DNA of 54,616 nt from a virus (Duplodnaviria; Caudoviricetes): the IMG/VR virus record IMGVR_UViG_3300042448_002124, positions 1-54,616 of that record. One strand, written 5' to 3'. Positions 32,355-49,133 of this stretch are shown here, piece after piece. Position 1 is the stretch's first letter; the number at the start of each line of letters is the position of its first letter. The notes below the pieces were generated by a model. That model ran no database searches, was not told the origin of the DNA, and was given only the letters and a program-made list of their open reading frames with translations. Both the position numbers and the translations under genes were made by a program.

Positions 32355-33302
32355 ATGAGTTTAACTAAAGAAGAGTTCCACGCAAAAAAAGAGCAATGGT
32401 TAGAAAATGTGAAAACCAAAAAGGGAATCATTGCACAATTAGATGCAGATGGAATGTGTTCAGCATACATATTGAATAAAGTCACAGGATTACCAGTTGT
32501 CGGTATAACAGATTTGTATAACACAATATATGGTATTGGTAAAGGGGATAATGTTAGTGACTACGTGTTTGTTGATGTTGAGATTTTTGATGAAAGTGTC
32601 TACTCTATTGGTAATCATAATAATGTAACTAATGATGAGGTATTAACAGAGTTATTACAGAATAGATTATCTAATTGCTTAAATCCAAATTATCAATTCG
32701 GTGTTACAGTTACAGATTATCGTCAAAAATATCCTTACAGTACTTCATTATACTTAATGGAGTTGTTTGGCGATAGATTTGATATGAATGAAATGCTTTC
32801 AAATGAAAAAATTAAAACTTGTTTAATATTCTCTGATGGCATCTATAACAACGTGTGGAAATATAGGGCAAATTCAGAAGATTGGCAAAAGAAACTTTTT
32901 ACTAATCCAATCATCAACGAACAAATGTTAAATCCTCTTTTTGAAATAAAAGACAGATCAACATACGAAAGAACAATTTTAGATGACATTAAAAGAAATT
33001 TCAATAACTTTGACGCTAAAAGCAAATGCGATAAGAATGTGGAAACAATCGATGCGTTCACTAAAAGGAAATTGGAAAACATGTCAGCACCATTTACCGA
33101 CAGCGGATTTACCACCGAAGTTAATTTCGATAAAAAAATTACCCTAGATAGTAAAATATATAGTCCAAAATTTTATAATCCGATCCCTAGAGAATATCAT
33201 TGCGACCCAATTTTAATTTATGAGAACACGTTTACCATAAATTATATCTACCAAGACAGTATTTCGTTAACAAATATACCAACAGAAGACAAATATGTAT
33301 AA
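32355..33302 (+). CDS. DHH-superfamily phosphoesterase-like protein
   Basis: Motif I DADGMCSA, motif II VFVDV and NCLNPN present; the DHH position reads GNHN. Confidence 0.55.
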   Translation: MSLTKEEFHAKKEQWLENVKTKKGIIAQLDADGMCSAYILNKVTGLPVVGITDLYNTIYGIGKGDNVSDYVFVDVEIFDESVYSIGNHNNVTNDEVLTELLQNRLSNCLNPNYQFGVTVTDYRQKYPYSTSLYLMELFGDRFDMNEMLSNEKIKTCLIFSDGIYNNVWKYRANSEDWQKKLFTNPIINEQMLNPLFEIKDRSTYERTILDDIKRNFNNFDAKSKCDKNVETIDAFTKRKLENMSAPFTDSGFTTEVNFDKKITLDSKIYSPKFYNPIPREYHCDPILIYENTFTINYIYQDSISLTNIPTEDKYV

Positions 33303-35634
33303 TAACCCGTTTATTAAAGTTGAGTGGGAAGATGTTCCAGAAAACTTGACGCAAGAACGTATAAAAAGAGTAAAAACTTATTTTCAAACTAAGTATAACT
33401 CAACCAACGTTAAGATAGTTACTAAAGTGATTAGTAATTTATCTAACACAAAACTAAAATCACTAGAGGCGAGCGATAATATTTTAGATCCGCAATATCA
33501 GAAGAATCTTGTTAAAGATTTTATGAGTGAAAACGGTATTAACATAAAATGGGAATTAGTTAATCGATTAGACGATAAGGTAAATTCAGAAATTGATAAA
33601 CTAAATCAAAATAAAGTTAGATACAACAAATGGTTCATAAAGAAAGTTGAATTTTCTAATTTTCTTTCTTACGGTGAGAATAATGTGATTGAATTTACTG
33701 ATTTAGATGGCATCACTGTCATTGAATCTACCCCTAGAAATTTTGGTGGTAAATCAACTGCAACTGTTGACCTATTGATGTTCTTATTTTTTAATTCAAC
33801 AACAAAAACTAAAACGAATATTGAAATATTCAATAAGTTTTCTGATGCTGACGAGGTTAAGGTAAAAGGTGAAGTCATTATTGATGGCGATACTTACATA
33901 ATATCAAGAAACGTAACTAGAAAGAAAAGTAAATCAGGTGAATACACGGTAAAAAATGATTTAGAATTCTTTAAAAAAGCAGAAGACGGGGCTATCATTA
34001 ATTTATCTGGTGAACAAAGGAAAGAGACAGAAACACTAATTACTTCTGCTATAGGTACTCAAGAAGATTTCCTTTCAACAATTCTTACAACTGGATATAA
34101 TCTAGAAGAATTAATTGAAAGTAAACCAACAGCAAGAGGGCAAATCATTACAAAATTTTTAGGTTTAGAATCCCTTAAAAATAAAGAAGACATTGCTAAA
34201 GAAATGTATAGTGAATGGGGTAAGAAATTGATTTCAAATACAAACAATATTGTTGATCTTGAAAATCAAAATAATGTTGCGACAGAATCTATTGGAAATT
34301 CTAAAGATCAAGTTGAAGCATTAACAATCGCTTTAACCGGGTTTGAGGAAAAAGTAAAAAAGTTAAACGAAAGAAAAGAACATATTTTAACTTTAAAAAA
34401 TAACGATATTGATCGAGAATTAATCAACACAAATCCAACTTTACTTGAGAGAGAGATAAACGAAATTATTACTCAAAGAAACACTAGTCAAAAAAATGCT
34501 GACAGTGTTAATGTAACTGAACCGTCCAACTATTATCTTGAAGATGAACACAACCAATTGAAAGAGAAAATAAATCAATTGGTGGTAGAGAATCGTTTAG
34601 GTGAAAGAGAGAAAGCAGACAAAGAAAAGCACATCAAATTATTAGAAGAAGGTAAGATATGTCCTAAATGCAATAGACCACTAGACGAGGTTGACCACAC
34701 ATATGAGATTGAGGAAACTAAAAAGGAAATTGAGGAGATTAATAAGGATAGGGAAAACAACGATAAAGAACTTGAAGATTTAAAGAAACGATCTGACGCA
34801 TATGAAACCTTAAAAACTGAATTCGATACTTACGAAAGAAATAAACTTCGTAAAGCGAGATATGAATTAGAAGTTGAACAGAAGCAAGTTGAGATTAACA
34901 CAAAACAATCTAGATTAGACAATTATGAAAGGAATAAAAGTAAACTAGAAGAGAATCAAAAAATTGACGGAGAATTAATCACATTAAGAACACAAATAGA
35001 AACTGCTAGCGCCGATATTACAGTTACCAATAATAATATTAGTAAACATAACAATAATATTACTAATATGGAAGAAAAAATTGATACAAATAATAAGTTG
35101 ATAGAAAAGATAAGGGCAGAAGAAGAATATCAACAAGTGTTTAAAACATACTTAACAATTTTTGGTAAGAACGGGATTTCTAAAATTATTCTAAAGAATA
35201 TGATTCCACTACTTAATCAGGAATTGCATCGTTTACTATCTGATAGTTGTTATTTCACTCTTGAGTTAAACATTAATGATAAGAACGAGGTTGAGTTTAT
35301 TATGATCGATAATGAAACCAGGGTAATTAAACCCCTTAATGCTGGATCAGGTTACGAAAGAACAATATCCTCATTGGCATTGAGAAGCGTTTTAACAAAA
35401 GTGTCGTCATTACCTAAACCAAACATTGTGGTGATGGATGAAGTATTTGGAAAGATAGCAGACGAGAATTTGGAAATGGTAGGTGAATTTTTCAAGAAAA
35501 TCAAAAATTATTTTGAACATATCTTAGTAATATCACATAATCCTTTAATACGTAACTGGTCAGATAATATTATCATGGTTAAAAAAGATGATAATATATC
35601 CAGTATTGAATATGTGACGACCAAAATTTCTTAA
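33295..35634 (+). CDS. sbcC: SbcC/Rad50 (gp46-like) SMC-family ATPase
   Basis: NFLSYG, Walker A NFGGKST, coiled coil with a CPKC zinc hook, signature GSGYE, Walker B VVMDE and ISHN. Confidence 0.9.
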   Translation: MYNNPFIKVEWEDVPENLTQERIKRVKTYFQTKYNSTNVKIVTKVISNLSNTKLKSLEASDNILDPQYQKNLVKDFMSENGINIKWELVNRLDDKVNSEIDKLNQNKVRYNKWFIKKVEFSNFLSYGENNVIEFTDLDGITVIESTPRNFGGKSTATVDLLMFLFFNSTTKTKTNIEIFNKFSDADEVKVKGEVIIDGDTYIISRNVTRKKSKSGEYTVKNDLEFFKKAEDGAIINLSGEQRKETETLITSAIGTQEDFLSTILTTGYNLEELIESKPTARGQIITKFLGLESLKNKEDIAKEMYSEWGKKLISNTNNIVDLENQNNVATESIGNSKDQVEALTIALTGFEEKVKKLNERKEHILTLKNNDIDRELINTNPTLLEREINEIITQRNTSQKNADSVNVTEPSNYYLEDEHNQLKEKINQLVVENRLGEREKADKEKHIKLLEEGKICPKCNRPLDEVDHTYEIEETKKEIEEINKDRENNDKELEDLKKRSDAYETLKTEFDTYERNKLRKARYELEVEQKQVEINTKQSRLDNYERNKSKLEENQKIDGELITLRTQIETASADITVTNNNISKHNNNITNMEEKIDTNNKLIEKIRAEEEYQQVFKTYLTIFGKNGISKIILKNMIPLLNQELHRLLSDSCYFTLELNINDKNEVEFIMIDNETRVIKPLNAGSGYERTISSLALRSVLTKVSSLPKPNIVVMDEVFGKIADENLEMVGEFFKKIKNYFEHILVISHNPLIRNWSDNIIMVKKDDNISSIEYVTTKIS

Positions 35635-35650
35635 TTTAATTTTTTTTAAT

Positions 35651-35658
35651 TATATTTG
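35651..35658 (+). promoter_or_regulatory. TATATTTG, matches the Bacteroidota -7 box TAnnTTTG (representative of the TATATT class)
   Basis: Lies 13 nt before the clpP ATG. Same 8-mer at 46015-22; related GTATATT at 28903, 31998, 46524 and 49455. Confidence 0.6.
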
Positions 35659-35671
35659 TAAAAACAAATTT

Positions 35672-36367
35672 ATGACACCAAAGGAATACAATGGCTTCGG
35701 CCTTTTCGCAAAAAGCATGGGTATTAGTTCTTCTAAGATTGATTATTTTAGTAAACATTTAGAATCATACCTAGGCCTTAAAAGTAGTTTAACGCCCTAT
35801 GTTCTTGAAGAAAGACAAATGAATGTAACACAGATTGATGTGTTCAGTAGATTAATGATGGAACGCATTATATGGGTAGCCGGAGAGGTAAATGATAATA
35901 TGTCAGTTATCACACAGGCGCAACTCATGTTTTTAGATAGTTTGGACAACACAGATATTACAATGCACATCGATAGTCCTGGCGGAAGCGTTAAATCTGG
36001 GTTATCAATGGTAGATGTTATGGATTACATCAGTTCAGACATTAGAACAATCAATACTGGTATGGCAGCATCTATGGGTTCTATTTTACTAGGCGCTGGC
36101 GCAAAAGGAAAAAGAGGATCACTTAGATTTTCTAGAACAATGTTACACCAAAGTTCAGGTGGATTCCAAGGAAACATCCAAGATGCTAAAATTGATATGA
36201 TTGAGTGGGAGAAAATCAATAATACTTTATTTGAATTATTGGGCGGCTATTGTGGTAAAGATGCTGAAGTCGTTAAACAGGACGCATCAAGAGATTTATG
36301 GTTATCATCTGAAGATGCGTTGGCTTACGGAATCATTGATGAAATTGTAACCAAAAAGAAGAAATAA
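35672..36367 (+). CDS. clpP: ATP-dependent Clp protease proteolytic subunit
   Basis: DVFSRLMMERII, IDSPGGSV, catalytic AASMGS, MLHQ and RD motifs. Confidence 0.95.
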   Translation: MTPKEYNGFGLFAKSMGISSSKIDYFSKHLESYLGLKSSLTPYVLEERQMNVTQIDVFSRLMMERIIWVAGEVNDNMSVITQAQLMFLDSLDNTDITMHIDSPGGSVKSGLSMVDVMDYISSDIRTINTGMAASMGSILLGAGAKGKRGSLRFSRTMLHQSSGGFQGNIQDAKIDMIEWEKINNTLFELLGGYCGKDAEVVKQDASRDLWLSSEDALAYGIIDEIVTKKKK

Positions 36368-36395
36368 GTTTTAGGGTTTGTAAATAAATAAAATT

Positions 36396-36424
36396 GGGAG
36401 GTGTCTTTACACTTCCCTTTTTTT
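36396..36424 (+). terminator. Intrinsic terminator after clpP
   Basis: GGGAGGTGT-cttt-ACACTTCCC plus T7. Confidence 0.85.
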
Positions 36425-36447
36425 ATTTCTTCCTATATATTTATTCC

Positions 36448-36521
36448 TAGACCTTGTGGTTGAATCGGAAGTGTCCTAGAGACATTTGAGTTGGAATTGA
36501 TACCAACGAATTCGGGTTCAA
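36448..36521 (+). ncRNA. Structured 5' leader (three-way junction) plus the 5' arm of a long-range stem
   Basis: P1 36460-70/36511-21, P2 36471-75/36481-85, P3 36490-94/36503-07 flanked by tandem GA; 36448-62 pairs with 37366-80. Confidence 0.6.
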
Positions 36522-36541
36522 ATACAAAAAAATATAAGGAA

Positions 36542-37357
36542 ATGAACAGAAGAATTTCAGTTAACACAACTGGTCTTGCTGTACCACAATCTTTCATTAC
36601 CAAAGGTAAACAAAGATTAAAACAGCACGTAGACACCGTATATCTTAATAACGGTGATGAGTTCGAAATCGAACTTTTTAATCCAACAAGCAATAAAGTT
36701 TTAGCAAAAATCGAGATGAATGGTAATCCCATTGGTAATGGTATCATACTTCGTCCTGGTGAACGCATCTTCCTCGAAAGGTATCTTGATGAGGCAAAGA
36801 AGTTTTTATTTGAAACATATGTTGTAAACGGGGATAATCAAGAAGTGCAAGATGCTATTGCTAATAATGGTGATGTAGTTGTTAAATTCTATAATGAAAC
36901 GCCCCCACCGACATATTATAACGGTGGTTCGGGAACAGTAACCATTGGCAACCCTGTTTGGGCCAATTATCCATATACCTATACAACGCACAATACGTTA
37001 GGTAACACATCTTTTACCACAACATCGACAAATACAAACACGTTTTACAACACATCTTTAACAAGTGGAACATTTAATACCTCAAATACGTTCTTAAATA
37101 ACCCTAACAGGGTTAAAAAATCGGAAAGACAAATTGAGACAGGTAGAGTTGAAAAGGGTTCCGATTCTAACCAATCTTTTACGTACGATAGTACATCTTT
37201 TAATAGTTGGGCATCTAATACAAATTGGTGGAAAATTAAACCTAAATCAACCCAATTGGTAACAATGGAGGATTTGGTTACATATTGTACTGAATGTGGC
37301 GGTAAAAGGAAAAAAGACACATATAAGTTCTGTCCACATTGCGGAACAAAATTCTAA
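36542..37357 (+). CDS. Uncharacterised protein: beta-sandwich-like N-domain, T/N/S-rich linker, C-terminal zinc ribbon
   Basis: ATG 36542 preceded by AAGGA; ends CTECG...KFCPHCGTKF. The TTG start at 36491 lies inside the folded leader. Confidence 0.8.
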   Translation: MNRRISVNTTGLAVPQSFITKGKQRLKQHVDTVYLNNGDEFEIELFNPTSNKVLAKIEMNGNPIGNGIILRPGERIFLERYLDEAKKFLFETYVVNGDNQEVQDAIANNGDVVVKFYNETPPPTYYNGGSGTVTIGNPVWANYPYTYTTHNTLGNTSFTTTSTNTNTFYNTSLTSGTFNTSNTFLNNPNRVKKSERQIETGRVEKGSDSNQSFTYDSTSFNSWASNTNWWKIKPKSTQLVTMEDLVTYCTECGGKRKKDTYKFCPHCGTKF

Positions 37358-37382
37358 TAATAAACTAATCACAAGGTCTACG

Positions 37383-37407
37383 CGGGGTACTTTTTGTACC
37401 CCGTTTG
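37383..37407 (+). terminator. Intrinsic terminator after the Zn-ribbon gene
   Basis: CGGGGTAC-ttttt-GTACCCCG then TTTG, immediately followed by the next TATTTAT. Confidence 0.75.
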
Positions 37408-37428
37408 TATTTATATTAAAATACGCAT

Positions 37429-37773
37429 ATGAAGATCAATAAAACGAATATACTGCTTGTTATTGTCATTATTTTGGCTGGATATAGTATTTTCCAGGGA
37501 GATAAGATAAGAACCGATGTAGCGGGTTATAATAACAAAATTGACTCAATTCAGAATGAGATCGATTCGGTAGAAATGTTAAACACTAAATTAAGTGAAC
37601 AAATTGGCGTTATCGACCAAGAAATCGATAAAGTAGACGGAAATATAAATAATGTTACAAAAAACATAACAATCATCAAAAACCAAACACATGAAAAAAT
37701 TGATTCTGTTAATAACTATAATTTTTCTGACCTCGAAAAGTTTTTCTCAGACCGTTACAAAGACCAATATTGA
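37429..37773 (+). CDS. Membrane-anchored coiled-coil protein (i-spanin-like candidate)
   Basis: N-terminal TM (ILLVIVIILAGYSIF) then a heptad coiled coil; overlaps the next gene by 83 nt. Confidence 0.55.
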   Translation: MKINKTNILLVIVIILAGYSIFQGDKIRTDVAGYNNKIDSIQNEIDSVEMLNTKLSEQIGVIDQEIDKVDGNINNVTKNITIIKNQTHEKIDSVNNYNFSDLEKFFSDRYKDQY

Positions 37774-38107
37774 TACTATAGTACCATTAAAGGTACCAGT
37801 AGCAAAAATGGTAATTAAGGACTTAATTAAGGGTGATGGCGCTCAGATCGAGATCCTGGAACTTAATAAGGTAATATCCCTTAAAGACGATCAAATCACT
37901 CTTTTTAAACAAAAAGACACGCTAAAAGATCAAAAAATAGGTAATTTGGAGTTAATTATCACAAAAAAAGACCAACAATTTGATTTAGAGAGAGCAAAAT
38001 CCGAGAGTTTATTCAAAGAACTTAAATCACAAAAAAGAAAGACATTCTTATATAAAGTTGGTTCATTTGTGGGAATAGTTGCCACAACAATGTTATTATT
38101 AAAATAG
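37691..38107 (+). CDS. Secreted/envelope coiled-coil protein with signal peptide and C-terminal hydrophobic helix
   Basis: MKKLILLITIIFLTSKSFS-QT signal peptide with Gln at +1; C-terminal VGSFVGIVATTMLLLK. Confidence 0.6.
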   Translation: MKKLILLITIIFLTSKSFSQTVTKTNIDTIVPLKVPVAKMVIKDLIKGDGAQIEILELNKVISLKDDQITLFKQKDTLKDQKIGNLELIITKKDQQFDLERAKSESLFKELKSQKRKTFLYKVGSFVGIVATTMLLLK

Positions 38108-38108
38108 A

Positions 38109-38771
38109 ATGAAGAAATATCTAGATATTAGAAATGTTATCATCGTTATTCTTCTATTGTTGGCTCTAGTTGAGTTCCTAAACCCTAGAGGGTTCATGCC
38201 TGGTAGAACCAAATTAATGACACAAATTGATTCAATACCTTACCCAGTACACGACACAATTCCATTTGAAACGGAGATTGAAGTACCCGTTGAGATCGAG
38301 GTTGAAGTACCAGTGGATAGACCTGTGGAAGTGAGAGTCGAAGTTGAAAAACCAGTGGATACTGCAGCAATTTTAAAAATGTTTGCCGAAAACAAACAAA
38401 CTAAAAAAGATGTTTTAGAATTACCTAACAACATAGGTACGGTGACGGTTTTTGATACAATATCTAATAACAGGATATTGGGTAGATCATTTACCAGTAA
38501 GGTAAAGAAGCAAATCGTAAAAGACACCATTTATACCCCAGTACCTCCAAAACGTTTATATTACATTGGATTTGATGCTAAATTTGATAAACCTAATATG
38601 ATAAACTTATTAGGCGTTAGTATGATGATTAAAACAAAGGACGAAAAAATCTATAAATTCGGTGTTGGTGTGCAAAACATTGTAGGTCCAGACGGAGTAA
38701 ACGGGTCTTTAGTACCAAATATTGGTGGAGGAGTTTACTGGAAAATTAATCTTCGAAAGGGTAGTAAGTAA
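38109..38771 (+). CDS. Envelope protein with N-terminal TM and C-terminal amphipathic beta strands (spanin-like candidate)
   Basis: VIIVILLLLALV anchor, EVPV repeats, terminal NIGGGVYWKINL strand. Confidence 0.55.
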   Translation: MKKYLDIRNVIIVILLLLALVEFLNPRGFMPGRTKLMTQIDSIPYPVHDTIPFETEIEVPVEIEVEVPVDRPVEVRVEVEKPVDTAAILKMFAENKQTKKDVLELPNNIGTVTVFDTISNNRILGRSFTSKVKKQIVKDTIYTPVPPKRLYYIGFDAKFDKPNMINLLGVSMMIKTKDEKIYKFGVGVQNIVGPDGVNGSLVPNIGGGVYWKINLRKGSK

Positions 38772-48608: not shown

Positions 48609-49133
48609 ATGTCAAACAATTGGTATGTGTTAAAAGTAACACCAGGAAAAGAAAGACAAATGAGCGATCATTTTAATACCTTAATATCTTTAGGTCGAAT
48701 GGAATATGTAACTAGATTTATATGTCCTACCGAAAGAGAGGTTGTAACAACTAAGAAAAAGAAAACTTACAGAGATAGGGTTTTGTATAATGGGTACCTA
48801 TATTTCGAGGCCCAAAACAAACTGAATGACGAGGAGTTAAAAGAAATATCTGTTTTCCCTTCTGTTATGTCTATGTTAGGGGATAAAAGACCAAAACTAA
48901 TGGGCCCGGTTGATATACAAAAAATAATCAAAGACGATAAACTAGACCTACATAGAGAAAACAAATTAGTGGCGTTTATGATTGGTGAAGAAGTGACATT
49001 GACAGATGGTCCATTTACATCATTTGTTGGTACAATAACGGATATAAAAGGTGATAAAGTTACTTTAAATGTTAGAATTTTCGGTAGATTTACATCGGTA
49101 ACAATTGATATTGAACACATTAAAAAGACATAG
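48609..49133 (+). CDS. nusG: NusG-family transcription elongation/antitermination factor
   Basis: NGN domain WYVLKVTPGKE...LYNGYLYFE and KOW domain GEEVTLTDGPFTSFVGTI...VRIFGRFTSV. Confidence 0.9.
   Translation: MSNNWYVLKVTPGKERQMSDHFNTLISLGRMEYVTRFICPTEREVVTTKKKKTYRDRVLYNGYLYFEAQNKLNDEELKEISVFPSVMSMLGDKRPKLMGPVDIQKIIKDDKLDLHRENKLVAFMIGEEVTLTDGPFTSFVGTITDIKGDKVTLNVRIFGRFTSVTIDIEHIKKT

What the first reader, a model, noticed from the sequence alone, without database searches (positions are those of the whole stretch)
36438..37407. Single-gene unit whose mRNA ends zip together: a 15-bp long-range stem encloses the whole Zn-ribbon ORF
Seen: TAGACCTTGTGGTTG (36448-62), 3 nt after a TATTTAT motif, is complementary to TAATCACAAGGTCTA (37366-80), 2 nt before the terminator. 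The duplex is 11 contiguous Watson-Crick pairs, then G-U, two WC pairs and G-U, across ~900 nt. Both imperfections are G-U only on the sense strand, which favours RNA pairing over a DNA inverted repeat. The unit is insulated by terminators on both sides (36396 and 37383), and I noticed no similar clamp on other genes here. Inference: the transcript is a closed-loop RNA carrying a structured domain plus one ORF. It could be an RNase III/processing or circularisation substrate, a stabilised RNP, or an RNA-protein module architecturally like retron a1/a2 arms but with no reverse transcriptase in this window. This is the best candidate for an undescribed system.
Basis: partly seen in the sequence, partly recalled or inferred. 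Interest (0 to 1): 0.85.

Follow-up and report, generated by a model that had tools for sequence, protein, structure and literature searches.

The report
Phage mRNA whose ends pair
A single-gene messenger RNA of freshwater jumbo phages carries a conserved folded leader whose first bases pair with a short stretch just before the terminator, closing the whole message into a loop, and this design is kept in about ninety related phages although the paired letters themselves change.

Summary
The arms 36448-62 and 37366-80 are complementary as described. In this one window an 11-bp repeat could arise by chance.

- **The clamp.** Among relatives of the 271-aa Zn-ribbon protein, 64 of 64 distinct loci of the near clade keep the 5'/3' helix. 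So do 27 of 36 distinct loci of a far set. The arm sequences differ between clades but stay complementary to each other.
- **The leader.** The 5' arm opens a ~95-nt leader: a three-way junction of helices P2, P3 and P4. Covariation supports it strongly, and no Rfam family matches.
- **Strand and context.** G-U pairs place the structure on the sense strand. A promoter-like TATTTAT sits just upstream and a terminator just downstream.
- **Second partner.** The 5' arm is also complementary to a box 3-9 nt before the AUG, and this box covaries with it too.
- **Predicted folding.** Folding of full-length mRNAs gives the 5'-3' helix a probability near 1.

Best reading: an RNA-level end-to-end clamp that buries both mRNA ends and moves the 5' arm off the start region once the 3' end exists. 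The function is inferred, and energy models do not show a translational switch. The retron, circularisation and inverted-repeat DNA readings are not supported. I rate it a new variant of 5'/3'-UTR pairing.

The parts
36396..36417 (+). terminator-like hairpin of the upstream ClpP-like gene, followed by a T run
   Evidence: 9-pair stem, 5 G-C pairs; the ClpP-like gene is identified
36438..36444 (+). promoter-like TATTTAT box, 3 nt before the 5' arm
   Evidence: 14 of 25 + strand copies lie within 60 nt upstream of a gene start, a zone that is 4.8% of the window. They usually sit 11-21 nt before the ATG. Similar boxes precede the arm in relatives. The promoter function is inferred.
36448..36462 (+). 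5' arm. Its core, 36450-36458, pairs with the 3' arm (helix P1). 36452-36458 can instead pair with the pre-AUG box (helix P1').
36461..36520 (+). Three-way junction of the leader. P2 is 36461-36470 with 36511-36520. P3 is a hairpin, 36471-36475 with 36481-36485. P4 is a hairpin, 36490-36494 with 36503-36507.
   Evidence: RNAalifold. Pair counts: P2 has 8 of 9 pairs with changes on both sides and P3 has 5 of 5 in A4; P4 has 5 of 5 in the far set A6. The covariance model R1 scores 105.7 bits here.
36521..36532 (+). A-rich single-stranded linker between P2 and the pre-AUG box
   Evidence: unpaired in the consensus structure
36533..36539 (+). pre-AUG box TATAAGG, the second partner of the 5' arm (P1')
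   Evidence: 95.7% of cells paired; 7 of 7 pairs covary in the far set; cognate versus non-cognate pairing, 0 of 10000 permutations. It is not a generic ribosome-binding site here: 2 of 45 genes have an SD-like word.
36542..37357 (+). ORF of 271 aa (stop included): an Ig-like beta-sandwich N-domain, a hypervariable T/N-rich linker, a conserved ETGRVEKGS box and a C-terminal Zn ribbon
37366..37380 (+). 3' arm, 8 nt after the last base of the stop run TAATAATAA and 1 nt before the terminator stem
37382..37414 (+). intrinsic-terminator-like hairpin (37382-37404) with its T-rich tail
   Evidence: a comparable hairpin follows the arm in 75 of 93 loci

Best explanation
This is a cis-acting RNA architecture of a monocistronic, probably late, jumbo-phage mRNA.

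Shown by comparison:
- The transcript region starts with a ~95-nt leader folded as a three-way junction (P2 carrying hairpins P3 and P4).
- Its first 9-19 bases pair with a short 3' arm. That arm sits about 7 nt after the stop codon and about 4 nt before the terminator hairpin.
- The same 5' bases are also complementary to a box 3-9 nt before the AUG.

Inferred:
- Transcription starts a few bases after the TATTTAT box, so the arm is the physical 5' end.
- In the nascent RNA the arm is parked on the pre-AUG box and closes the leader.
- When the 3' arm is made, some 870 nt later, the longer and stronger 5'-3' helix takes the arm over. It stacks on P2 and abuts the terminator hairpin.
- The finished mRNA is then a closed loop with both ends buried. 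This should protect it from nucleases that depend on free 5' or 3' ends.
- Release of the start region also becomes dependent on an intact 3' end.

My odds: about 0.9 that the 5'-3' helix and the leader are real RNA structures, about 0.65 that the pre-AUG pairing is real, and about 0.45 that the function is end protection plus 3'-end-dependent release of the start region. The confidence given for this entry (0.5) is for the statement as a whole, function included.
For: 1. **Helix kept in the near clade.** In 64 of 64 distinct loci, the core positions -1 to +6 are Watson-Crick or G-U in 62, and 2 loci have one mismatch. On the 28-row whole-unit alignment, 91.4% of cells pair, against 23-44% when the partner is slid. 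Four of 15 pairs change on both sides. None of 500 shuffles reach the covariation score.
2. **Far set.** 27 of 36 distinct loci have a 5'/3' duplex that at most 2 of 200 shuffles reach. The arm sequences are clade-specific. LR756500 (35% aa identity) has a different 12-bp pair, with energy -23.7 against -9.2 +/- 2.6 for shuffles.
3. **Alignment-free test on 17 arm classes.** The cognate 3' UTR gives -12.0 against -6.25 kcal/mol for non-cognate. The cognate pre-AUG box gives -5.57 against -3.26. In both cases 0 of 10000 permutations do as well.
4. **Leader structure.** In A4, 97.8% of cells pair and 15 of 26 pairs change on both sides (0 of 500 shuffles). In A6, 24 of 26 pairs change on both sides.
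5. **Sense strand.** 213 of 1482 leader cells are G-U, summed from the pair table. In the clamp there are 54 G-U against 18 A-C cells, and a G-U at position +7 is kept in 47 of 64 loci.
6. **Predicted folding.** Full-length partition-function folds give the clamp a probability of 0.99 or more in 17 of 18 sequences (0.83 in the other) and about 1 in 8 of 8 clades. In leader-only folds the arm makes at least 4 expected pairs with the last 25 nt in 55 of 57 and 28 of 38 sequences.
7. **Geometry.** The gap from stop codon to helix has a median of 7 nt. The helix has a median of 14 bp. A terminator-like hairpin follows within 0-12 nt in 75 of 93 loci.
8. **One copy per genome.** There is one strong leader match in each of two genomes that are 95-97% complete, always in front of this gene.
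9. **Conservation.** The leader (0.856 mean pairwise identity) and the 3' arm (0.859) are more conserved than any part of the coding sequence (0.34-0.78).
Against: - **No RNA ends are mapped.** One contig of an RNA library continues 23 nt upstream of the arm through the promoter-like box. This could be read-through or carried-over DNA.
- **Energy models give no translational switch.** Predicted accessibility of -12 to +5 is the same in full-length RNAs and in RNAs lacking the 3' arm. It is 0.66 with the arm free against 0.63 with the arm held away, and only 2 of 64 sequences rise by 0.1 or more.
- **Behaviour in truncated RNAs.** In long RNAs lacking the 3' arm, the 5' arm is predicted to pair inside the ORF rather than with the box.
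- **Weak support for the box in the near clade.** The pre-AUG helix is nearly invariant there: 1 of 7 pairs covaries, and 10 of 57 rows are broken at that pair. Its support in A6 comes from an alignment fitted to the model.
- **Competing pairing.** In single-sequence folds of the near clade a rival local pairing (UUGUG with UACAA) competes with it.
- **Loci without a clamp.** 9 of 36 far loci show none, nor do L039, L041 or the Lak phages.
- **Modest covariation in the near clade.** 26 of 500 shuffles reach the number of double-sided pairs, and 170 of 500 reach the number of further pair types.
Confidence: 0.5

Rival explanations
1. RNase III-type processing stalk. The 5'-3' helix, stacked on P2, is cut by a double-strand-specific host nuclease. 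This trims off the 5' arm and the terminator, as in rRNA precursors, T7 early mRNAs or icaR, and so sets the life span or the translatability of the mRNA.
For: The two flanks of one transcript form the helix. P1 (median 14 bp) plus P2 (10 positions) would give about 24 stacked pairs. In icaR, 5'-3' pairing creates an RNase III substrate (PMC3868564, abstract read).
Against: P1 alone has 9-19 bp, and P2 always carries an internal mismatch. No RNase III gene was found in the window or in two near-complete relatives, although a host enzyme would be enough. No processed ends were visible, but contigs cannot show them.
Confidence: 0.15
2. Autoregulatory protein platform. The encoded Zn-ribbon protein, or another phage factor, binds the junction of P1, P2, P3 and P4 and controls its own synthesis. 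The clamp mainly builds the binding site.
For: In the near clade, P4 and the junction letters (TTTGAGTTGG ... CCAAC) are nearly invariant in sequence, not only in pairing. The element occurs once per genome and only before this gene. The protein ends in a Zn ribbon.
Against: In the far set P4 covaries freely (5 of 5 pairs), so the sequence is not universally fixed. The fold is a generic Ig-like sandwich with Z about 6 and no nucleic-acid-binding relative stands out. There is no direct evidence of binding.
Confidence: 0.15
3. DNA-level inverted repeat. The arms are terminal repeats of a mobile cassette, recombination sites of an invertible segment, or two sites for one DNA-binding protein.
For: The unit sits in different genomic places in related phages. 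Sites without it exist in 54 of 80 loci that share the ClpP neighbourhood. Arms that co-evolve by clade would also fit paired protein-binding sites.
Against: - Comparing filled and empty sites shows that the moved piece includes one promoter box and one terminator, so its borders are not at the arms.
- All 64 plus 36 loci have the same orientation relative to promoter and terminator.
- There is one copy per genome, and no transposase-like or recombinase domain is found in the ORF.
- G-U outnumbers A-C, and a G-U is conserved.
- The 5' arm overlaps an RNA junction supported by covariation and has a third covarying partner before the AUG.
Confidence: 0.03
4. Covalent circularisation or a retron-like template. 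The paired ends are joined, or they prime reverse transcription.
For: Only the architecture: the ends are brought together next to a structured domain.
Against: No RVT_1 and no RtcB were found in the window or in two near-complete relatives. No back-joints were seen in contigs of 4 RNA runs. The interior is a normal conserved protein gene.
Confidence: 0.03
5. Chance complementarity in an AT-rich genome.
For: A second perfect 11-nt inverted repeat lies nearby, and near matches to the 11-mer occur at the chance rate.
Against: The helix is conserved with compensatory change across about 90 distinct loci and 17 arm classes.
Confidence: 0.01

Closest known systems
hbs mRNA of Bacillus subtilis, 14-bp 5'/3'-UTR interaction (PMC5737220; abstract and outline read)
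   Same: Both have a short helix between the 5' and 3' UTR of one small monocistronic mRNA, of similar length (14 bp there, median 14 here). It is tied to nuclease access and to translation initiation.
   Different: hbs is a single-gene case in one bacterium, with RNase Y and RNase J1 shown by experiment. Here there is a family-wide element with clade-specific compensatory arms, a three-way-junction leader, the very 5' end apparently inside the helix, and no experimental data.
icaR mRNA of Staphylococcus aureus, 3'-UTR motif pairing with the SD region (PMC3868564; abstract and outline read)
   Same: Both show long-range 3'-UTR to 5'-UTR pairing within one mRNA that bears on the start region.
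   Different: In icaR the 3' UTR itself covers the SD, represses translation and creates an RNase III site. Here the 3' arm pairs with the partner of the start-region box, which would free the start region rather than cover it.
Leader of the maturation gene of MS2-like RNA phages, where an upstream complementary sequence pairs with the SD and closes a cloverleaf (PMC4615214; passages read)
   Same: A 5'-proximal segment pairs with about 7 nt just before the start codon. It closes a multi-hairpin junction that forms before the start codon is made, and the long-distance pair covaries.
   Different: In MS2 the closed form is the final, inhibitory state and translation happens only transiently. 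Here a third element at the 3' end is predicted to win at full length. The carrier is a dsDNA jumbo-phage mRNA, not a genome RNA.
Processing stalks formed by the flanks of rRNA precursors and phage T7 RNase III sites (recalled, not from a call)
   Same: Sequences on both sides of a long RNA pair to form a helix.
   Different: Those stalks are longer and their cleavage is documented. Here the helix has 9-19 bp and cleavage is untested.
Retron msr-msd a1/a2 arms
   Same: Inverted repeats pair at the two ends of a structured RNA.
   Different: No reverse transcriptase was found, and the interior is a protein gene.
PeSL promoter-terminator cassettes of T4-type phages (PMC2839356, PMC4122927; search listing only)
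   Same: A whole transcription unit bounded by a promoter box and a terminator hairpin appears at different genome positions, and empty sites keep one terminator and one promoter.
   Different: This concerns how the unit moves, not the 5'-3' RNA helix. Whether the same recombination route operates here is not tested.

Membership tests
Any Rfam 15 family | match at or above the family's gathering score | tested here: not met
   The whole window gave 0 matches at gathering thresholds. In 36300-37500 at E up to 10, the only matches were terminator-driven and far below threshold (best was L20_leader, 22.3 bits against 58.7).
mRNAs with a 5'/3'-UTR interaction (hbs / icaR kind) | complementary segments in the 5' and 3' UTR of the same transcript | tested here: met
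   Complementarity is shown. That both arms lie in one transcript is inferred from the promoter-like box and the terminator and is not mapped.
mRNAs with a 5'/3'-UTR interaction (hbs / icaR kind) | pairing maintained by compensatory change | tested here: met
mRNAs with a 5'/3'-UTR interaction (hbs / icaR kind) | measured effect of the pairing on stability or translation | not testable with these tools
   This needs arm mutants and compensatory mutants in a host.
MS2-type leader (upstream complementary sequence pairs with the start region) | 5'-proximal segment pairs with the bases just before the AUG and closes a multi-hairpin junction | tested here: met
   the support is weaker inside the near clade
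MS2-type leader (upstream complementary sequence pairs with the start region) | the closed leader is the final equilibrium state of the full RNA | tested here: not met
   In full-length folds the arm pairs with the 3' arm at a probability near 1 and with the box at about 0. This is prediction only.
RNase III processing stalk | about two turns of near-continuous double strand formed by the flanks | tested here: inconclusive
   P1 has 9-19 bp with a median of 14. It reaches about 24 bp only if stacked on P2, which has an internal mismatch.
RNase III processing stalk | cleavage products | not testable with these tools
   Only contigs of RNA runs were available.
Retron | reverse transcriptase gene next to the structured RNA | tested here: not met
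   PF00078 was found in 0 of 3 records: the window and two relatives that are 97% and 95% complete. The control genomes gave matches.
Cassette bounded by terminal inverted repeats, or invertible segment | borders of the moved or inverted DNA coincide with the repeats | tested here: not met
   The filled site has two terminator+promoter sets and the empty sites have one, so the moved piece is the whole transcription unit. No inverted copy was seen among about 100 loci.
Cassette bounded by terminal inverted repeats, or invertible segment | transposase or recombinase, and multiple copies | tested here: not met
   Pfam and PHROGs find only a weak Zn-ribbon match in the ORF. There is one strong leader match per near-complete genome.

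The most novel reading that the evidence does not exclude
This may be an RNA-only closed loop that licenses translation. The 5' end of the mRNA sits on its own start region until the last-transcribed 3' arm pulls it away. It would fall back when the 3' end is degraded, so only complete and intact copies of this message are translated. That would be a phage counterpart of the integrity check ascribed to the eukaryotic cap-poly(A) closed loop, with start and stop codons held within about 30 nt of one helix.
Probability: 0.25. Interest if true: 0.9.

Novelty: new variant of a known kind. Interest (0 to 1): 0.8.

Why it matters
Pairing between the two UTRs of a bacterial mRNA is known from a handful of single-gene cases studied by experiment. 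Here the same principle appears as an evolutionarily maintained design. It is found in about ninety distinct loci of a gene family with at least 562 members in IMG/VR, across arm sequences that have been completely rewritten.

The design is combined with a well-defined leader that is not in Rfam, and with a second, competing partner at the start codon. This gives a natural, compact and sequence-programmable system. It can be used to test whether end-to-end pairing stabilises prokaryotic mRNAs or makes translation depend on transcript completeness. The host background appears not to use Shine-Dalgarno pairing.

It also marks an unknown but widespread jumbo-phage protein as tightly controlled.

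Tried and rejected
- **Rfam:** nothing.
- **tRNA or tmRNA in the window:** none.
- **Nucleotide search of the phage collection with 35600-38200:** only 2 weak ClpP-region matches.
- **Lak megaphages** hold the protein (about 34% identity). I saw no leader match (best E 1.3 in L042-L044; 0.23 at an unrelated place in Lak-C1) and no evident arms.
- **L039 and L041** have model-like leaders (E 0.01 and 1e-4) but no significant 5'/3' duplex.
- **Protein function.**
  - Pfam and PHROGs give only a weak Zn-ribbon match.
  - Foldseek against the PDB has a best E of 0.066.
  - VIA-align wide gives generic Ig-like sandwiches with Z of 6.3 or less.
  - BFVD gives uncharacterised proteins.
  - The ESM Atlas gives only 'hypothetical protein' clusters.
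- **RNA evidence.** 24 runs held 7-15% of the words. Contigs of 4 river metatranscriptomes cover the leader and the first third of relatives' ORFs. They show no joints and cannot show ends. Uncovered parts are no finding.
- **Phage-encoded RNase III, RtcB and reverse transcriptase:** none in 3 records.
- **Switch models from energy folding:** no support.
- **Duplex-energy ranking of the 45 genes:** this gene is first, but by a small margin, because terminator halves in the flanks also pair. I do not lean on it.
- **The loose promoter-box regex** (86 of 95 loci) is weak in AT-rich DNA.
- **Literature.** Searches gave no description of this leader or of a natural end-paired phage mRNA. Paper supplements were not consulted.
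- **Not run.** R-scape or CaCoFold could not be run on a joined 5'+3' alignment, because I could not hand in joined sequences. I used the whole-unit alignment (A1) and my own scripts instead.
- **Rows dropped.**
  - L036: ORF cut by the contig end.
  - L082: ORF broken at 129 aa.
  - L201 and L212: partial model matches.
  - L186: 3' flank of only 3 nt.
  - Identical rows were collapsed before counts.
Full report
**What is in the window**

TAGACCTTGTGGTTG lies at 36448-62 and TAATCACAAGGTCTA at 37366-80. They give 11 Watson-Crick pairs, then G-U, two Watson-Crick pairs and G-U. TATTTAT lies 3 nt upstream of the 5' arm. Terminator-like hairpins lie at 36396-36417 and 37382-37404.

Between the arms lies one ORF, 36542-37357, of 271 aa. 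On this evidence alone chance is a fair rival. A second perfect 11-nt inverted repeat lies in the same 1.2 kb. Near matches to the 11-mer occur at the expected rate, 16 against 12.8.

**Context**

The window is a fragment, estimated at 16% complete, of a virus record. Neighbouring genes are an SbcC-like gene and a ClpP-like protease upstream, and small coiled-coil or membrane proteins downstream. The protein has relatives in Lak megaphages and other huge phages at about 34-49% identity. It also has many relatives in IMG/VR:
- 37 loci were found with the protein itself as query.
- 428 relatives were found with a profile, of which 80 were kept.
- At least 562 were found with a second profile led by a distant member, of which 80 were kept.

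**The 5'-3' helix is conserved**

Printing the flanks showed two things. The ~95 nt from the arm to the ATG are nearly invariant although the proteins are 44-84% identical. A 3' arm follows every stop codon and is itself followed by unrelated terminators.

On the whole-unit alignment of 28 distinct rows (A1), the 15 pairs are formed in 91.4% of cells, against 23-44% when the partner is slid by 1-3 columns. Four pairs change on both sides. None of 500 column shuffles reach the covariation score or the paired fraction. However, 26 of 500 reach the number of double-sided pairs and 170 of 500 reach the number of further pair types. Inside this clade the covariation is therefore real but modest.

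Adding the second batch gives 64 distinct arm pairs. All keep the helix. Two, L034 and L080, have one mismatch, at the same position. Non-Watson-Crick cells at positions -3 to +8 are 54 G-U against 18 A-C. A G-U at +7 is kept in 47 of 64 loci.

**The far set rewrites the arms**

In the 80 loci found with the distant profile, a covariance model of the leader (R1) matched 47 at E of 0.01 or better. Every match was on the gene's strand and directly upstream of the gene. I analysed 45 of these 47 and left out two partial matches. One more had no 3' flank. After collapsing duplicates, 36 distinct loci remained.

In 27 of them, the first bases of the leader and the 70 nt after the stop form a duplex that at most 2 of 200 shuffles reach. 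The arm sequences are quite different from those of the window and differ among clades. Examples are GGGUGCCUUUCGUAC with GUACAAAGGCACCC, AAAGCCUCGUGUGGC with GCUACACGAGGCUUU, and AAGAGCCUGAC with GUCAGGCUCUU. LR756500 has UCUCACUUUGUU with AACAAAGUGAGA, at -23.7 against -9.2 +/- 2.6 kcal/mol.

Nine of the 36 show no clamp, and neither do L039, L041 or the Lak loci.

An alignment-free test on 17 arm classes gives a cognate 3' UTR energy of -12.0 against -6.25 kcal/mol for non-cognate. None of 10000 permutations do as well, and the cognate ranks first in 10 of 17 classes.

**The leader is a structured RNA**

RNAalifold on 64 leaders (A4) gives these helices in window coordinates:
- P2, 36461-70 with 36511-20, which encloses the two hairpins.
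- P3, 36471-75 with 36481-85.
- P4, 36490-94 with 36503-07.
- A closing helix P1' between the 5' arm (36452-58) and TATAAGG (36533-39).

The counts are 97.8% of cells paired against 36-44% when slid. Fifteen of 26 pairs change on both sides, and no shuffle of 500 reaches the observed value on any of the five measures. P2 has 8 of 9 and P3 has 5 of 5 double-sided pairs. In the far set A6, which is fitted to the model, 24 of 26 pairs change on both sides, including 7 of 7 in P1' and 5 of 5 in P4.

Summing the pair table, 213 of 1482 cells are G-U. The structure therefore belongs to the + strand. Rfam has no match. The element occurs once in the window and once in each of two relatives' genomes that are 95-97% complete.

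**A second partner for the 5' arm**

The box before the AUG changes with the arm. It reads AAGG, GAGG, AAAGGU, ACGAG, UCAGG or GAGAU in different clades. The cognate box pairs better than non-cognate boxes, -5.57 against -3.26 kcal/mol, with 0 of 10000 permutations doing as well.

This is not a generic ribosome-binding site. Only 2 of 45 genes in the window have an SD-like word upstream, which fits a host that does not rely on such pairing. The host field 'Prevotella' in the Lak records points the same way, but this is an inference.

In leader-only partition-function folds, the first 12 nt make at least 4 expected pairs with the last 25 nt in 55 of 57 near and 28 of 38 far sequences. In full-length folds the arm pairs with the 3' arm at a probability of 0.99 or more in 17 of 18 sequences (0.83 in L087) and in 8 of 8 clades.

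**Where the transcript probably starts and ends**

TATTTAT occurs 25 times on the + strand. Fourteen copies lie within 60 nt upstream of a gene start, a zone that is 4.8% of the window. They mostly sit 11-21 nt before the ATG. One such gene is a baseplate wedge subunit. The box therefore looks like a late-type promoter that gives very short leaders. This gene is the exception, with 104 nt between box and ATG. Related boxes precede the arm in relatives.

The 3' arm begins a median of 7 nt after the stop codon. The duplex has a median of 14 pairs. A terminator-like hairpin starts 0-12 nt after it in 75 of 93 loci.

The ends are not mapped. Twenty-one runs on record as RNA hold small shares of the stretch. 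Contigs of four river metatranscriptomes cover relatives' leaders and N-terminal coding parts. They show no joints, and one contig continues 23 nt upstream of the arm.

**How it most likely works**

Two things are shown: two mutually exclusive, covarying partners for the 5' arm, and a junction leader. The rest is inferred. The nascent leader closes on its own start region. The completed RNA moves the arm to the 3' arm. This makes a helix stacked on P2 and next to the terminator hairpin, so both ends are buried and the start and stop codons are held close together.

I rank end protection plus 3'-end-dependent release of the start region first. Against the switch part, predicted accessibility of -12 to +5 does not change, and a competing local pairing exists in the near clade.

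**Rivals**

- *RNase III stalk.* It is possible, but the helix is short and no phage enzyme was found.
- *Autoregulatory protein platform.* P4 and the junction are sequence-invariant in the near clade but not in the far set. The protein is a generic Ig-like sandwich plus a Zn ribbon.
- *DNA-level repeats.* The unit does move. The window's neighbours are shared by only 9 of 37 loci. Of 80 loci with the ClpP neighbourhood, 12 hold the gene and 54 have ClpP followed by the downstream gene without it. But empty sites keep one terminator and one promoter box while the filled site has two. The whole transcription unit is what moved, not the piece bounded by the arms. Together with strand-specific G-U pairs, the single orientation, the single copy and the third partner, this makes a DNA-level reading unlikely.
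- *Retron or circle.* No reverse transcriptase, no RtcB and no joints were found.

**Comparison with known systems**

The closest cases are these:
- The 14-bp 5'/3'-UTR helix of B. subtilis hbs (PMC5737220, abstract).
- The 3'-UTR to SD pairing of S. aureus icaR (PMC3868564, abstract).
- The MS2 maturation-gene leader, where an upstream segment pairs with the SD and closes a cloverleaf (PMC4615214, passages).

This element combines features of all three. It differs in being a conserved family with rewritten arms, in using the 3' arm against the start-region pairing rather than for it, and in sitting on a dsDNA jumbo-phage mRNA. My literature searches found no description of it.

**Verdict**

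The RNA-level interpretation is supported. I rate it a new variant of a known kind, with high interest.

Noticed in passing
window, + strand, e.g. 2836, 5178, 12802, 20964, 26006, 37408, 40552, 44567, 48592: TATTTAT boxes sit 11-21 nt before many start codons: 14 of 25 copies lie in 4.8% of the window. This implies very short or absent leaders for most genes. One such gene is a baseplate wedge subunit, so this is probably a late-type phage promoter.
   Followed up: partly
window, all 45 gene starts: Only 2 of 45 genes have an SD-like word upstream. The phage and its host seem not to use Shine-Dalgarno pairing, as in Bacteroidota. That makes the conserved purine box before this one AUG stand out.
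   Followed up: partly
window 36368-37428 compared with L215, L218, L224, L249, L271 and others: The whole transcription unit (promoter box, leader, ORF, 3' arm, terminator) is present between ClpP and the next gene in 12 of 80 syntenic loci and absent in 54. In several of those phages it lies more than 100 kb away on the same contig. This resembles promoter-terminator cassette shuffling.
   Followed up: partly
L273:3273-3790 and L280:3273-3790: At the same ClpP/downstream-gene junction these two relatives carry a different ~170-aa ORF with an NPPY-type motif, possibly a DNA methyltransferase. The junction may be an insertion hot spot. The name is my reading of the translated motif and was not tested.
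   Followed up: no
L013 / L214 compared with window 33295-38771: In this relative the neighbours are 86-97% identical in protein to the window's, and the leader and terminators are almost the same. The Zn-ribbon protein is only 73% identical and has a different N-terminus. The ORF seems to evolve, or to be exchanged, faster than its surroundings.
   Followed up: no
window 36900-37140 (ORF residues ~124-194): The middle of the protein is a T/N-rich linker of low confidence (pLDDT below 50). Its mean pairwise nucleotide identity is 0.34, against 0.69-0.78 for the two ends. It also holds internal direct repeats.
   Followed up: no
protein P0001 (36542-37354): Foldseek against predicted viral structures gives probability-1.0 matches (E 1e-8 to 1e-4, but large rmsd). 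The matches are uncharacterised proteins of giant viruses, nudiviruses, iridoviruses and nimaviruses, including rows named ICP-18 and Wsv390. This could be a widespread viral fold or could come from the sandwich plus the disordered part.
   Followed up: no
L034 and L080, 3' arms: Two unrelated loci carry a single mismatch at the same central position of the helix, C opposite U and C opposite A. These could be natural weakened variants or sequencing errors.
   Followed up: no
window 48609-49133: This ORF matches PHROG 6386, 'transcription antiterminator' (E 1e-19), and is also preceded by a TATTTAT box.
   Followed up: no
window 36380-37430 in runs X1-X24: Twenty-one runs on record as RNA, from river, lake and freshwater samples in 24 studies, hold 7-15% of the sampled words. 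That is about the share the conserved leader makes up. Only four were laid, so this is a lead on habitat and expression, not a finding.
   Followed up: partly
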